64,000 bases of DNA from Longimicrobiales bacterium (GTDB lineage Bacteria; Gemmatimonadota; Gemmatimonadetes; Longimicrobiales; Gaopeijiaceae), in contig CBDANQ010000040.1 in the NCBI GenBank assembly GCA_965197725.1, forward strand, positions 1 to 64,000. Direction: 5' to 3'. Below the pieces are notes generated by a model. It searched no databases, was not told the DNA's origin, and worked only from the letters and a program-made list of their open reading frames with translations. Position 1 is the first letter of the stretch; each line of letters starts with the position of its first letter. Positions 21,667 through 48,445 of this stretch are shown here, piece after piece. Made by a program: the position numbers and the translations under genes.

Positions 21667-21908
21667 CTCCTTCGACCCCTGAGTCTCCCGCGTCCAGTCG
21701 GCCGTCGGATTCATTGCCCACCTCTATCCCTGCCCATCCACGCATCCCTGCGGCGCATTCCGACTGACTGAGCCCCTCCTCCCGTTCAGCCGGCCTCGCT
21801 TCGCGTGGAGCGCCCGCACCGCTTCCGCCCGGCACCCCCGAAGCCCGCCACCATTCCCCTTCCCGCCTCACCTCCTGCCACGGCACCCCTTTTAGACCTC
21901 CTATCCTT
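21667..21908 (+). mobile_element. IS91/ISCR-like oriIS-end remnant, copy 1 (about 240 bp)
   Basis: Near-identical to the 3' end of 46971-48376; ends CCCCTTTTAGACCTCCTATCCTT. Confidence 0.8.
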
Positions 21909-22279
21909 TCCGATGGCTGATCCCCCGGTATCTCGACCACCCAGATGACCAGCGCGCGCTCGCCGACCTGATGGCGTCGAAGAGCCACATACGCGGTCAG
22001 GCGCGCGTCGGCGCAGCGTTCGGCGCCACACTCGGGCGCTTCCGCGAAGTAGTGAACCCCCCCGTCCCAACGATCGTAATCAGTCGGGGCAGGCGCGACT
22101 TGGCCGAGCCGTGGACCACGACGGAGCGTGAGCACGACTGGCGATACGGCCATGAATCACTGCTGGACGGGGTCCCCGACGGGCACCTGTGGGTCGCCGA
22201 GCAGAGCGGTCACATGATCCAACTCGAGCAGCCGGAGATCGTGCGAGACGCGGTTCGGGTGATCCTGGAAGGGGGTTAG
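21909..22279 (+). pseudogene. C-terminal part of an alpha/beta hydrolase
   Basis: PTIVISRG...SGHMIQLEQPEIVRDAV (catalytic His region); begins at the oriIS end. Confidence 0.75.
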
Positions 22280-23905: not shown

Positions 23906-24187
23906 GTGGGAATCTTTCAGATTGCAATGCTCGTGGCGACGTTTCTGTGCTCCCTGGTGGCAGGCTTCCTGTTTGCGTTTGCGGTCATGGTAATGCCGGG
24001 CATAGGAACCCCGAATGACCGGGAGTTCATCCGCGCTTTTCAGGTGATCGACGGCGTCATCCAGAACAATCAGCCGCTTTTTCTCCTGGTATGGGGCGGT
24101 TCGGCCTTGGCTTTGGTGGCGGCGGTTGCGCTTCGCGTCGGTGCCCTCGACTTCGACCAGTCCGTGCCCGACTCCTTCGACCCCTGA
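23906..24187 (+). pseudogene. DUF1772 (anthrone oxygenase-like) membrane protein 5' part fused in frame to the IS91 transposase tail
   Basis: LVAGFLFAFAVMVMPG...FQVIDGVIQNNQPLF then LRVGALDFDQSVPDSFDP* from the IS remnant. Confidence 0.7.
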
Positions 24188-24413
24188 GTCTCCCGCGTCC
24201 AGTCGGCCGTCGGATTCATTGCCCACCTCTATCCCTGCCCATCCACGCATCCCTGCGGCGCGTTCCGACTGACTGAGCCCCTCCTCCCGTTCAGCCGGCC
24301 TCGCTTCGCGTGGAGCGCCCGCACCGCTTCCGCCCGGCACCCCCGAAGCCCGCCACCATTCCCCTTCCCGCCTCACCTCCTGCCACGGCACCCCTTTTAG
24401 ACCTCCTATCCTT
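24129..24413 (+). mobile_element. IS91/ISCR-like oriIS-end remnant, copy 2 (about 285 bp)
   Basis: Same 3' end as the other copies; left breakpoint lies inside a hairpin micro-element. Confidence 0.8.
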
Positions 24414-24418
24414 TCCTT

Positions 24419-44862: not shown

Positions 44863-45298
44863 TCGTCTCCGCCATCCTGCTCCACCTCGACCTCCCCCAC
44901 AAACCCCCGCCCCTCTCGCCCGCCCGCGGACCGCCCCAGAGCGATCTCCTCGTCGAGCTCCTCGATCAGACGCCCACCTTCGACCCCGCCGCGCCCGACC
45001 CCGTCCCGACCAACGCTTCGCGTCGGTGCCCTCGACTTCGACCAGTCCGTGCTCGACTCCTTCGACCCCTGAGTCTCCCGCGTCCAGTCGGCCGTCGGAT
45101 TCATTGCCCACCTCTATCCCTGCCCATCCACGCATCCCTGCGGCGCGTTCCGACTGACTGAGCTCCTCCTCCCGTTCAGCCGGCCTCGCTTCGCGTGCAG
45201 CGCCCGCACCGCTTCCGCCCGGCACCCCCGAAGCCCGCCACCATTCCCCTTCCCGCCTCACCTCCTGCCACGGCACCCCTTTTAGACCTCCTATCCTT
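44863..45298 (+). mobile_element. IS91/ISCR-like oriIS-end remnant, copy 3 (about 435 bp)
   Basis: Encodes VSAILLHLDLPHKPP... tail; carries one micro-element (45009-45031); same 3' end. Confidence 0.82.
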
Positions 45299-46970: not shown

Positions 46971-48376
46971 CTCCACACGAGCCCCGGAGCGCCGCCTGAC
47001 GCCCAGCTCGGAGCCGTCAGCTTCTTTCATCGCTTCGGCTCGTCCCTCAACGTCCACCCCCACTACCACCTCATCGTCCTCGACGGTGTGTTCGGCGAGG
47101 CTGGCGACGGCGAGATCGAGTTTCACGAGGCCTCCGAGCTGACGCCCGATCACATACGCCAGCTCGAACCCATCCTCCAGCGACGCGTCCTTCGCTACTT
47201 CCGCCGCCACGGGCTCCTGGACGAGCTCGACGCCGCTGGCATGCTCACCTGGCAAGGCTCGGGCGGGTTTAGCGTCGACGCCTCCGTGCGCATCGAGGGT
47301 GAGGACCGCGCGGGCATCGAGCGCCTCGTCCGATACTGTGCCCGGCCGCCCTTCGCGCTCGAACGCCTGCACGCCCTCGACTCCACCCCTGCCCTCGCTT
47401 CAGGGGCACCCACCGAAGGTGGGTCGGCCGCGTTCTCTACCGCTTCCCGAAACCCGACGTCCACGGCCGCACCGAGCTGCTGCTCACACCCCTCGAACTC
47501 CTCGAGGCCCTCGCGACCAACGCTTCGCGTCGGTGCCCTCGTCCCACCCCCGCGCGTCCATCGTCACCGCTACCACGGGGTTCTGGCTCCGAATGCCAGG
47601 CTGCGGCCCTACGTCGTCGCATTCGGTCGGCCCGAGCGCGTGCCCGAGGCGCCTGTGCCCGAAGGCGATGCCACCTCACCTGGCGTGCCCCCCCCCCGAG
47701 CCGACCCCCGCTTCCCGCCCCTCCCCTGCCCGGGGGCACCCACCGCAGGTGGGTCGCTGGGCCGTCCTTCTCGCGCGCATCTACGACGTGCTGCCGCTCC
47801 TGTGTCCCGCAGGGCACCGCGCGAAGCGTGGTCCGCCGAGATGAAGATCCTCGCGTTTGCCTTCGGCGAGCTCCGCTTCGCTCCGGTTCTGACCGATCCG
47901 CCCGTCGTCTCCGCCATCCTCCTCCACCTCGACCTCCCCCACAAACCCCCGCCCCTCTCGCCCGCCCGCGGACCGCCCCAGAGCGATCTCCTCGTCGAGC
48001 TCCTCGATCAGACGCCCACCTTCGACCCCGCCGAGCCCGACCCCCACCAAAGGTGGGGTACCCGTCCCGACCAACGCCTCGCGACCACGCTCCGCGCGGT
48101 GCCCTGCCCTCGACTTCGACCAGTCCGTGCCCGACTCCTTCGACCCCTGAGTCTCCCGCGTCCAGTCGGCCGTCGGATTCATTGCCCACCTCTATCCCTG
48201 CCCATCCACGCATCCCTGCGGCGCGTTCCGACTGACTGAGCCCCTCCTCCCATTCAGCCGGCCTCGCTTCGCGTGGAGCGCCCGCACCGCTTCCGCCCGG
48301 CACCCCCGAAGCCCGCCACCATTCCCCTTCCCGCCTCACCTCCTGCCACGGCACCCCTTTTAGACCTCCTATCCTT
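46971..48376 (+). mobile_element. 5'-truncated IS91/ISCR-like rolling-circle element, copy 4; HUH transposase pseudogene (to 48150) plus oriIS end
   Basis: HRFGSSLNVHPHYH (HUH), RYCARPPF, HRYHGVLAPN, CPA.. motifs spread over frames; terminus resembles ISCR oriIS (...CTTCCTATACC). Confidence 0.85.
47404..48109. repeat. Cluster of seven GGGY-hairpin micro-elements (21-23 nt) plus one unrelated 30-nt insertion
   Basis: 47404-47424(+), 47516-47538(-), 47734-47754(+), 47812-47832(+), 48041-48063(-), 48070-48109(-) containing nested 48084-48104(-); 30-nt insert at 47859-47888. Confidence 0.8.
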
Positions 48377-48445
48377 TAACTGTCGCGTTCGGTTACCGTG
48401 GTGAGGTCGACGCTCGTCACGGCCTGGGCACCAGGGAGGTGAGCC

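What the first reader, a model, noticed from the sequence alone, without database searches (positions are those of the whole stretch)
47404..48109. Family of 21-23 nt 'GGGY + hairpin' micro-elements that riddle a rolling-circle transposase and appear to replace 4 target nucleotides
Seen: seven short inserts within about 710 bp of the IS91-like transposase, in both orientations. They share one design: 5'-GGGY, a 7-8 bp stem starting ACC and ending GGT, a 3-nt loop, then usually CG. Examples: GGGC-ACCCACC-GAA-GGTGGGT (47404), GGGC-ACCGACGC-GAA-GCGTTGGT (47516, minus), GGGC-ACCCACC-GCA-GGTGGGT (47734), GGGC-ACCGCGC-GAA-GCGTGGT (47812), GGGC-ACCGCGC-GGA-GCGTGGT (48084, minus), GGGT-ACCCCACC-TTT-GGTGGGGG (48041, minus). 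Stem sequences differ but stay paired, and the G:T wobbles lie on the GGGY strand, implying a strand-specific fold. Removing the insert and restoring 4 nt rejoins the expected transposase frame at four sites (ALAS-xx-GRVLY, ALA-x-LVPPP, CPA-xx-AEM, PVP-xx-DFDQ). The 47734 site fits only if its G run is counted one base differently. No target duplication is seen. Established: REP elements are a conserved tetranucleotide (GTAG or CGTC classes) plus an imperfect palindrome, and GTAG REPs are processed as ssDNA by HUH RAYT/TnpA-REP enzymes; IS91 elements move through ssDNA. Inference: these are a minimal non-autonomous REP-like class written into DNA by cut-and-replace, perhaps favouring ssDNA or structured targets, which would progressively inactivate rolling-circle elements. 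I saw none in the IS256, IS21, IS1182 or housekeeping genes, and no candidate enzyme other than the dead transposase is in the window.
Basis: partly seen in the sequence, partly recalled or inferred. Interest (0 to 1): 0.9.

Follow-up and report, generated by a model that had tools for sequence, protein, structure and literature searches.

The report
GGGC-tagged mini-hairpin DNA cassettes
A dead rolling-circle transposase gene is peppered with tiny mobile DNA hairpins that each add exactly one hairpin and overwrite four neighbouring bases, and the same hairpins also sit in small transposons of this bacterium and, in frame, inside essential genes of an unrelated phylum.

Summary
Seven GGGY + ACC…GGT hairpin cassettes (one nested in an older one) lie in window 47404-48109, and an eighth lies at 45009. 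The genome has 31 strict copies against about 2.5 expected by simulation.

Intact homologues of the IS91-like transposase lack the cassettes. In filled/empty comparisons, 15 events show a net gain equal to the hairpin length (17, 19 or 21 nt).

The cassettes are not specific to rolling-circle elements:
- In this genome most copies are modules inside TIR-type MITEs.
- Within the bacterial family they occur only in 3-4 genera.
- An identical 25-mer occurs in about 50 Solirubrobacterales (Actinomycetota) genomes at 1-2 copies each, mostly in frame (…GTAAEGGG…) in open genes such as dnaK, carB and a uvrD-like gene.

No Y1/RAYT gene was found in any cassette-bearing genome tested, and no IS91-type gene in the five actinobacterial genomes tested.

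Best reading: a REP-like, non-autonomous family of single-strand DNA hairpins with a new tag and a cut-and-replace insertion geometry. The enzyme is unknown.

The parts
46977..48150 (+). 5'-truncated, frame-broken relic of an IS91-family (Y2 HUH) transposase gene; host of the cassettes
   Evidence: PF04986 match at 47010-47384, E 1.8e-18. Aligned to intact 436-527 aa homologues L003, L006 and L010.
47404..47424 (+). Cassette GGGC-ACCCACC-GAA-GGTGGGT (site 1, …ALAS | GRVLY…)
   Evidence: Net +17 against intact homologues and against the empty allele TCA CCC GAG AGT CGC seen in an X20 contig. The same site is filled in G001 and G165 copies.
47516..47538 (-). Cassette GGGC-ACCGACGC-GAA-GCGTTGGT (site 2, …EALA | LVPPP…)
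   Evidence: Empty allele …CTCGCG AAGT TCGTCCC in X19/X20 contigs. Net +19. G001:C85 carries a different cassette (ACCGCGC) at the same site.
47734..47754 (+). Cassette GGGC-ACCCACC-GCA-GGTGGGT (site 3b, …PAR | RWAVLL…), preceded by one extra G
   Evidence: C10, L077 and L073 are empty with CG CATC CG. The C51:68979 copy is filled with net +17; the window shows +18.
47812..47832 (+). Cassette GGGC-ACCGCGC-GAA-GCGTGGT (site 4, inside the CxxC motif)
   Evidence: Empty C10, C51, L060 and L073 read GCT TGTG GY GGC. Net +17.
48041..48063 (-). Cassette GGGT-ACCCCACC-TTT-GGTGGGGG
   Evidence: Absent from the near-identical copy at 44863-45298, which reads GACCCCGTC. Net +19. Present in C61:189812.
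48070..48109 (-). Older ACCGACGC-type cassette (48070-48083 and 48105-48109) split by the nested cassette GGGC-ACCGCGC-GGA-GCGTGGT (48084-48104)
   Evidence: Copies at 45009 and 24142 keep the older cassette whole. Its CCGA is replaced by 21 nt, net +17. The older cassette itself replaced GACT (plus strand) relative to C10 and to X19-X22 contigs.
45009..45031 (-). Intact ACCGACGC cassette in a second partial relic copy (44863-45298)
48152..48377 (+). 3' non-coding end of the IS91-like element (oriIS-like). Four copies lie in the window: 21667-21909, 24142-24414, 44863-45298 and here.
   Evidence: The 'oriIS-like' label is an inference from the IS91 organisation described in PMC13181058.
47857..47886 (+). 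30-nt in-frame insert (…AFGELRFAPV…), not of the GGGC class and of unknown origin
   Evidence: Absent from C10, L073, L060, L071 and L077.

Best explanation
These are members of a non-autonomous, REP-like family of DNA mini-hairpins. Each has a 5' tag GGGY, a 7-13 bp stem that usually begins ACC and ends GGT, a short loop (mostly GNA) and a 3' C.

Each insertion is a precise cut-and-replace. The hairpin is added, the 4 nt in front of it are overwritten by GGGY, the next base becomes or is C, and nothing is duplicated. Cassettes with 17- or 19-nt hairpins therefore break reading frames and survive only in dead DNA (the IS91-like relic, MITE interiors). The 21-nt hairpin version keeps the frame and survives inside working genes.

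Shown: the family, its geometry, its restricted but cross-phylum spread, and its absence from intact transposase homologues.

Inferred: the reaction acts on folded single-stranded DNA and is catalysed in trans by a structure-specific enzyme that I could not identify. It is not a RAYT and not the IS91-type transposase. The relic is riddled because it is old, selectively neutral DNA in a host lineage where the family was active.
For: Family and excess:
- 31 strict copies against 2.5 expected.
- 28 of 170 ACC-start hairpins carry GGGC.
- At least 12 different stems stay paired.
- A compensatory variant, ACCGACGCC/GGCGTCGGT, sits at the uvrD-like site of G186.

Geometry: net gain equals hairpin length in 15 events.
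- Window: 47404, 47516, 47812, 48041, the older cassette, and 48084.
- C51 copy of site 3b.
- G001/G165 copies: site 2', L077-1867, site 3a, the nested site-4 insert, and L075/L076.
- dnaK, uvrD-like and carB (+21 each).

Flanks and loops:
- The base after the cassette is C in 63 of 65 loci and in 6 of the 7 intact window cassettes.
- Loops are mostly GAA, GGA or GCA closed by C:G.
- G·T pairs fall on the tag strand only.

Host range:
- The ACCCACC type occurs in 6 of 151 family genomes, with 15 hits and 0 in the reversed control. All 15 lie in IS91-like sequence, at 5 sites.
- The ACCGCCGCC type occurs in 9 of 151 genomes, covering those same three genera (g1, g15, g17) plus g4. The IS91-like gene occurs in 81 of 151.
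- G001 has 168 pattern matches against 41 in the control.

Intact homologues L003, L006 and L010 carry none.

Single-copy genomes have no resident donor, which argues for a trans-acting process rather than copying from a neighbour.
Against: - No enzyme was identified. PF01797 gave 0 hits in the own genome (88.9% complete), 0 of 4 in the same genus, 1 of 36 in the family, and 0 of 5 in other cassette-bearing genomes.
- Five or six events deviate by ±1 or more: window 47734 (+18), G001/G165 site 1 (+16), L077-1928 (+18), the ARGP site (+16), the PKP site (+18), and the RYFH site (+19/+21). Several abut G runs, where slippage is plausible but not shown.
- No clear target motif emerges from 17 empty sites beyond a weak C(G/A) 3' of the replaced bases.
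- Most copies in this genus ride in MITEs, so their number reflects MITE transposition, not cassette mobility.
- A 4-nt replacement is not what known HUH single-strand transposases produce.
- No ongoing mobility was seen, only fixed differences between copies.
Confidence: 0.55

Rival explanations
1. Templated patch repair or gene conversion. A broken or gapped target copies a cassette from another genomic copy through microhomology (for example the 3' CG/CAG), so flanking bases are converted along with the insert.
For: - The 3' flank of empty sites is C(G/A) in 9 of 17.
- At the ARGP site the empty allele of L060 reads CGCGAA, identical to the cassette core.
- The copy phylogeny is reticulate. 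48041 and 48084 are shared with the 94%-identical C61 copy but absent from the about 97-99%-identical 44863 copy.
Against: - The 5' boundary is always exactly at GGGY, whatever the donor flanks.
- The 4-nt skip is too regular for microhomology-guided return.
- Solirubrobacterales genomes hold only 1-2 copies, so no donor is present.
Confidence: 0.15
2. Cleavage with a 4-nt stagger and loss of the overhang, by a type IIA topoisomerase such as gyrase or by another staggered nuclease, with capture of a cassette as filler. The 4-nt tag would mark the stagger.
For: - Exactly 4 nt are lost or overwritten in 15 events (calls listed above).
- The tag is 4 nt and begins with G and mostly ends with C.
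- From my own knowledge, not from a call: gyrase cuts with a 4-nt stagger and is known to bind and cleave E. coli REP/BIME.
Against: - Worked through on paper, a single staggered exchange gives a net gain of hairpin + 4, not hairpin.
- It does not explain the conserved ACC…GGT stem ends or the source of free cassettes.
- Nothing here tests topoisomerase involvement.
Confidence: 0.1
3. The IS91-type Y2 HUH transposase mobilises the cassettes, acting preferentially in cis on its own gene. This would explain the dense riddling of its relics.
For: - IS91-family ends are a cleavage or target tetranucleotide next to an imperfect subterminal palindrome (PMC13181058, passages). This is the same design as the cassettes.
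- The ACCCACC, ACCGCGC and ACCCCACC types were seen only in IS91-like sequence.
- Ten cassettes lie in at most about 4 kb of relic DNA in this genome.
Against: - 0 of 5 cassette-bearing Solirubrobacterales genomes have a PF04986 match, while the same search does find the window's relic.
- The IS91-like gene is in 81 of 151 family genomes, but cassettes are in only 6-9.
- The ends of this IS family show no GGGC-ACC hairpin.
- Known IS91 insertion neither deletes nor replaces target bases.
Confidence: 0.08
4. The inserts are programmed and harmless to the transposase, for example skipped by the ribosome or removed from the RNA, so the gene is still functional.
For: - In ACCCACC cassettes a GGG at positions 1-3 and another at 18-20 would let a 17-nt hop restore the frame (read from the sequence).
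- In G165:C42 two cassettes together return to the original frame.
Against: - Other stems have no matching landing codon.
- The window copy is 5'-truncated and ends in a different frame.
- The stretch between the two G165 cassettes has 2 TGA stops.
- Intact homologues lack the inserts.
Confidence: 0.02

Closest known systems
REP elements (GTAG- and CGTC-tagged repetitive extragenic palindromes; BIME/REPIN clusters)
   Same: - A tetranucleotide tag at one end of a 20-40 nt imperfect palindrome.
- G·T pairs on one strand.
- Sub-families with compensating stem changes.
- Clusters in alternating orientation with linkers.
- Occasional copies inside ORFs and inside other small palindromes.
- CGTC REPs also lack a dedicated transposase (PMC3733652: abstract and passages).
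   Different: - The tag is GGGY. 'GGGC' has 0 occurrences in the text of PMC3733652.
- No RAYT was found.
- Copy number is low: about 30 here, 1-2 in Solirubrobacterales, about 100 in G001.
- In this genus the clusters are bounded by TIRs with CTAG-like duplications, so they are MITEs.
- The insertion geometry (hairpin added, 4 nt overwritten) is documented here. The REP dissemination mechanism is stated as unresolved in PMC8266576 (abstract and introduction).
Rickettsia palindromic elements (RPE) and intragenic REPs
   Same: Palindromic repeats inserted in frame into genes that stay open and probably functional (cited in PMC3733652, passages). Here these are dnaK, carB, a uvrD-like gene and others.
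   Different: RPEs are far longer (about 100-150 bp, from my own knowledge). The coding cassettes here add only 7 codons (GTAAEGGG or, antisense, TTAFGGGA) and occur in two unrelated phyla with an identical 25-mer.
Ends of IS91-family and IS200/IS605-family HUH transposons
   Same: A cleavage or target tetranucleotide beside a subterminal imperfect palindrome recognised as folded single-stranded DNA, with no target duplication (PMC13181058 passages; PMC8266576).
   Different: Those elements insert next to a fixed target tetranucleotide and delete nothing. The cassettes overwrite 4 variable nucleotides. No matching enzyme is present.
TIR-type MITEs
   Same: In this genome most cassettes lie inside 49-280 bp elements with about 19-27 bp terminal inverted repeats and CTAG-like flanking repeats.
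   Different: The single cassettes in the relic and in actinobacterial genes have no TIRs and no duplication. They are sub-modules that move, or moved, independently of the MITE.

Membership tests
REP (repetitive extragenic palindromes) in the sense of Di Nocera et al. 2013 | Short (20-40 nt) imperfect palindrome able to fold as a stem-loop, G·T pairs allowed | tested here: met
   21-27 nt units with 7-10 bp stems. DNA fold energies are -5.5 to -7.7 kcal/mol.
REP (repetitive extragenic palindromes) in the sense of Di Nocera et al. 2013 | Conserved tetranucleotide GTAG or CGTC at one end | tested here: not met
   The tag is GGGC, rarely GGGT. 'GGGC' has 0 occurrences in the text of that paper.
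REP (repetitive extragenic palindromes) in the sense of Di Nocera et al. 2013 | High copy number, mostly extragenic | tested here: inconclusive
   31 copies in this genome, about 130 above control in G001, and 1-2 in Solirubrobacterales genomes. Copies are extragenic in Gemmatimonadota-type loci and mostly intragenic in Solirubrobacterales.
REPtron (REP + RAYT) | A Y1 HUH transposase gene (PF01797) in the genome, flanked by the repeats | tested here: not met
   0 hits in the own genome, 0 of 4 in the same genus, 1 of 36 in the family, and 0 of 5 in other cassette-bearing genomes. The control genomes did give hits.
IS91-family non-autonomous derivative | Co-occurrence with a Y2 HUH transposase and ends resembling oriIS/terIS of that element | tested here: not met
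   No PF04986 match in 5 cassette-bearing Solirubrobacterales genomes. The ends of this IS family carry no GGGC-ACC hairpin.
MITE (TIR-type) | Terminal inverted repeats and target-site duplication around the unit that moved | tested here: not met
   This holds for the single cassettes: no TIR and no duplication at any of the sites compared. It is met for the larger mosaics that carry cassettes.
Known RNA families (Rfam 15) | Match to a curated covariance model | tested here: not met
   0 matches at E up to 1 in 21 kb holding the mosaics. The window relic itself was not scanned.

The most novel reading that the evidence does not exclude
The cassettes define a new kind of mobile DNA: a 21-27 nt single-strand hairpin that moves by segment swap, exchanging itself for about 5 nt of target. 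The enzyme would be none of the known REP or IS partners, and may not be resident. That would explain several things together:
- one or two copies per genome at different genes in different species
- an identical 25-mer in Gemmatimonadota and Actinomycetota
- odd 5-6-nt fillers (CATCT in the C49 MITE, CGCGAA in the G165 copy) where a cassette is expected

The many natural filled/empty pairs would make the long-open question of how REP-like hairpins spread directly testable.
Probability: 0.25. Interest if true: 0.85.

Novelty: new variant of a known kind. Interest (0 to 1): 0.72.

Why it matters
How REP-type hairpins spread is unresolved, even for the RAYT-associated classes (PMC8266576). A whole class (CGTC) has no known enzyme (PMC3733652).

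This locus and its relatives supply about 20 natural insertion events with empty alleles. They include nested insertions and insertions in essential genes of a second phylum. Together they give a sharp, reproducible signature: hairpin added, 4 nt overwritten by the tag, C next, no duplication. Any proposed mechanism must reproduce that signature.

It also shows that a 7-codon palindromic insert can settle in dnaK, carB and repair-helicase genes. Such inserts are a source of lineage-specific indels in conserved proteins, and they can mislead gene callers and frameshift detectors.

Tried and rejected
- The rival reading that GGGY is a pre-existing target and only the hairpin is inserted. I rejected it because near-identical or conserved empty alleles read CCGA, GGGG, CATC, TGTG, AAGT, GACT, GCAG and so on at that place.
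- Chance or an assembly artefact. Rejected.
- RAYT search: nothing found.
- IS91 ends as cassette look-alikes: none.
- Rfam: no match.
- Earlier notes of this scan: nothing on this genome region, sequence or words.
- Viral contigs: 0 exact matches of the 25-mer.
- Full-text search for the 21-nt hairpin string: 0 papers.
- REPtron-like gene flanked by inverted cassettes in G001: all listed pairs lie within 300 nt clusters (listing truncated). Two fetched regions (L081, L082) were not analysed further.
- A gyrase subunit-exchange model, worked through on paper, predicts hairpin + 4 and so does not fit as it stands.
- Logan contigs from X21 and X22 show related copies without the 3' cassettes (a joint from 48045 to 48110 with 9 other letters). 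They are other copies or organisms, not proof of excision.
- The habitat labels of the small-share runs were not used.
- Pfam on the short in-frame pieces of the relic failed for a size limit and was not repeated.
Full report
**What is in the window**

Window 46977-48150 (+) is a 5'-truncated relic of an IS91-family Y2 transposase gene. It matches PF04986 at E 1.8e-18 and is the only such match in the 3.0 Mb, 61-contig, 64.6% GC genome. Intact homologues of 436-527 aa exist in related genomes (L003, L006, L010).

- 47404 (+)
- 47516 (-)
- 47734 (+)
- 47812 (+)
- 48041 (-, one imperfect end)
- 48084 (-)

The seventh is an older ACCGACGC-type cassette, at 48070-48083 and 48105-48109, into which the 48084 cassette is nested. 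Another whole cassette lies at 45009 (-) in a second partial copy of the relic.

**More than chance**

- The strict definition gives 31 copies in the genome. Twelve second-order Markov simulations gave 0-6, mean 2.5.
- In an unselected scan of all hairpins of 7 bp or more, 28 of the 170 that start with ACC are preceded by GGGC.
- At least 12 different stem sequences keep pairing.
- G·T pairs lie on the tag strand, which folds better than its complement in the ACCG…TGGT types: -5.5 to -6.0 against -3.2 to -3.7 kcal/mol with DNA parameters.
- Loops in the 28 strict members are GAA (11), GGA (3), GCA (2) and others.
- Contigs assembled from public runs X19 and X20 reproduce three cassette-bearing stretches exactly. 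Those runs may be the source sample, so this excludes an artefact of this assembly only.

**Insertion geometry**

Near-identical or conserved empty alleles are available for most events. The overwritten bases below are given in tag orientation, except where marked plus strand.

| Event | Empty allele from | Bases overwritten | Net gain |
|---|---|---|---|
| 48041 | relic copy at 44863-45298 | GGGG | +19 |
| 48084 | same copy, which keeps the older cassette whole | CCGA | +17 |
| Site 3 (47734) | C10 copy | CATC | +17 in the C51 copy; +18 in the window, which has one more G |
| Site 4 (47812) | C10 and C51 copies | TGTG | +17 |
| Older cassette | C10 copy | GACT (plus strand) | +19 |
| Site 2 (47516) | contigs of related copies, …CTCGCG AAGT TCGTCCC | AAGT (plus strand) | +19 |
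| Site 1 (47404) | contigs of related copies, TCA CCC GAG AGT CGC | CCGA | +17 |

Contigs of related copies also show the 3' end without any of its three cassettes.

Copies in a same-genus genome (G001) and in G165 add more events:
- A different cassette (ACCGCGC) at site 2.
- A cassette replacing CCCA before RVHRH.
- Site 3a, shifted by 1 nt from 3b, where ATCC is overwritten and the next G reads C.
- A second nested insertion, where ACCG of an older site-4 cassette is replaced.
- An N-terminal site (L075/L076).

In 15 events the net gain equals the hairpin length. Five or six events deviate:
- window 47734: +18
- G001/G165 site 1: +16
- L077-1928: +18
- the ARGP site: +16
- the PKP site: +18
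- the RYFH site: +19/+21

Several of these abut G runs, or lack close empty alleles. No event shows a target duplication.

The base after GGT is C in nearly all filled sites, even where the empty allele has G, T or A. The overwritten stretch is therefore probably 5 nt.

The alternative that GGGY is a pre-existing target is not tenable, given what the empty alleles read at that position.

**Where else the family lives**

Of the 31 copies in this genome:
- Eight are in IS91-like relics.
- Twenty are in mosaics between housekeeping genes, for example FtsK|MiaB, an oxidoreductase|Lnt, and a glycosyltransferase|RibBA.
- Three are isolated and fall within the chance expectation.

Of the mosaics I examined, eight are complete MITEs of 49-280 bp. 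They have terminal inverted repeats and CTAG-like flanking repeats, and their interiors are built from cassette modules with conserved stems and variable loops. One MITE copy (C49) has CATCT where the others have G + cassette + C. No Rfam family matches these loci.

Across 151 genomes of the bacterial family:
- The IS91-like gene is present in 81.
- The ACCCACC cassette is present in only 6, from three genera. It gave 15 hits against 0 for the reversed control, all inside IS91-like sequence at five sites.
- The ACCGCCGCC cassette is present in 9, covering those same three genera plus one more.
- G001 has 168 pattern matches against 41 for the control.

So the cassettes belong to certain host lineages, not to the IS.

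G165:C42 is an otherwise full-length transposase gene with just two cassettes. Copies in genus g17 also carry a 41-nt insert with a GGGC-tagged 13-bp stem.

**A second phylum**

A scan of one genome per prokaryote species for the exact 25-mer (ACCGCCGCC type, loop GAA) gave 65 loci:
- Ten have Gemmatimonadota-type non-coding flanks.
- One is labelled Sphingomonas.
- 54 are labelled Solirubrobacterales, Solirubrobacteraceae, Conexibacter, Actinomycetes or Actinomycetota.

The genomes tested hold 1-2 copies each.

Of the 65 loci, 37 lie in a fully open 425-nt frame with GC3 of at least 0.80. Twenty-eight of these read xGTAAEGGG on the tag strand and six read TTAFGGGA on the other strand. By sequence, the genes include dnaK, carB, a uvrD-like helicase, a sugar nucleotidyltransferase and a carotenoid-oxygenase-like gene.

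The empty orthologues confirm the geometry:
- **dnaK.** The gene of G180 stays open (657 aa). The relatives listed are 21 or 24 nt shorter, and the 19 whose DNA I read at the site all lack the cassette. GCC GG|CGAG|CAG has become GCC GG|GGGC…GGT|CAG.
- **uvrD-like.** A 98%-identical orthologue reads GC|GCAG|CAG. A more distant orthologue (G186) carries a variant cassette with compensating stem changes at the same site.
- **carB.** The net gain is +21, and two related species carry shortened or decayed versions.

Here the 21-nt hairpin keeps the reading frame, which explains why this type survives inside genes.

**Enzyme**

- PF01797 (Y1/RAYT) gave no hit in the own genome, in the 4 same-genus genomes or in 5 other cassette-bearing genomes, and 1 hit in 36 genomes of the family. 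Control genomes did give hits.
- PF04986 (IS91-type) gave no hit in 5 cassette-bearing Solirubrobacterales genomes.
- The ends of this IS family do not resemble the cassettes.
- The 25-mer is absent from the viral contig collection.

**Comparison with what is in print**

- REPs are defined by a GTAG or CGTC tag plus a palindrome. They can sit in ORFs and inside small palindromes, and the CGTC class lacks a dedicated transposase (PMC3733652: abstract and passages). That text never mentions GGGC.
- The mechanism of REP dissemination is described as unresolved (PMC8266576: abstract and introduction passages).
- IS91-family ends are a tetranucleotide beside a subterminal imperfect palindrome. Insertion is next to a fixed tetranucleotide, without duplication (PMC13181058: passages).
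- A full-text search for the hairpin string found no paper.
- I did not read supplements of any paper.

**Reading**

The family works like a REP: a tagged single-strand hairpin, non-autonomous, tolerated mainly in junk DNA. It fails two membership features, the tag and RAYT.

The riddling of the relic is best explained by neutral accumulation in a host lineage where the family was active. An IS91-driven process remains a minor rival.

The mechanism behind the constant overwriting of 4-5 nt is not explained by any transposase chemistry I know. I commit to a trans-acting, structure-specific cut-and-replace on single-stranded DNA. My confidence is about 0.55 for the family and its geometry as a mobile element, and much lower for the enzyme class. 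The rivals are templated patch repair and a 4-nt staggered cut with filler capture.

Noticed in passing
window 21667-21909, 24142-24414, 44863-45298, 48105-48377: Four copies (99% identical over 243-273 nt) of the 3' non-coding end of the IS91-like element lie in one 27-kb stretch. Three of them have little or no transposase sequence. The homology of the 24142 copy starts inside the older cassette.
   Followed up: partly
window 47857-47886 and about 47992-48000: A 30-nt in-frame insert (AFGELRFAPV) and a 9-nt insert (LVE) relative to all other copies. Neither is of the GGGC class and their origin is unknown.
   Followed up: no
window 47687-47697: A run of 10-11 C in the variable linker, where the reading frame of the relic shifts from 0 to 1 without any cassette.
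   Followed up: partly
G000 C24:38106-38368, C32:28718-28909, C36:506-746, C40:67599-67816, C49:9312-9523, C53:61539-61753, C56:65536-65584, C61:58896-59175: A MITE family with about 19-27 bp terminal inverted repeats and CTAG-like flanking repeats. It includes a 49-bp minimal copy that is TIR to TIR only. A second mosaic type ends in …ACTTCTTCAACAGCCTTCTAG.
   Followed up: partly
G000, many contigs (e.g. C18:1017-2056, C8:20305-21344, C61:265166-266206): A dispersed element of 1 kb or more at about 40 copies, seen as sets of identical hairpins. It often lies near contig ends and is probably an active insertion sequence. Its family was not determined.
   Followed up: no
L062/L063/L033 (genus g17 copies of the transposase), about position 1300-1345 of L062: A 41-nt insert between …SIDA and SVRIEG… holding a GGGC-tagged hairpin with a 13-bp stem (CCCCGCGCGATGC / GCATCGCGTGGGG, one G·T). 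This suggests the tag is shared by hairpins that do not start with ACC.
   Followed up: partly
L102, L140, L133, L115 (Solirubrobacterales loci): The 25-mer is immediately preceded by …CCGATC-N3-6-GATCGG. This looks like another small hairpin (ACCGATC-GAA/GGA-GATCGG in two of them) whose 3' end the cassette has overwritten.
   Followed up: no
L060 (G165:C42) versus L071 (G001:C38), ARGP site: Where L071 and L077 carry a cassette, the otherwise near-identical L060 reads CGCGAA. That is the core of the cassette, while other copies read CCCCAA or CCGCAG. It is unexplained and could be a remnant, a seed or a coincidence.
   Followed up: partly
G002:C3 (listing): ACCGCCGCC cassettes are on the minus strand at 0.63-0.86 Mb and mostly on the plus strand at 1.03-1.66 Mb. 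This may be an orientation switch tied to replication direction.
   Followed up: no
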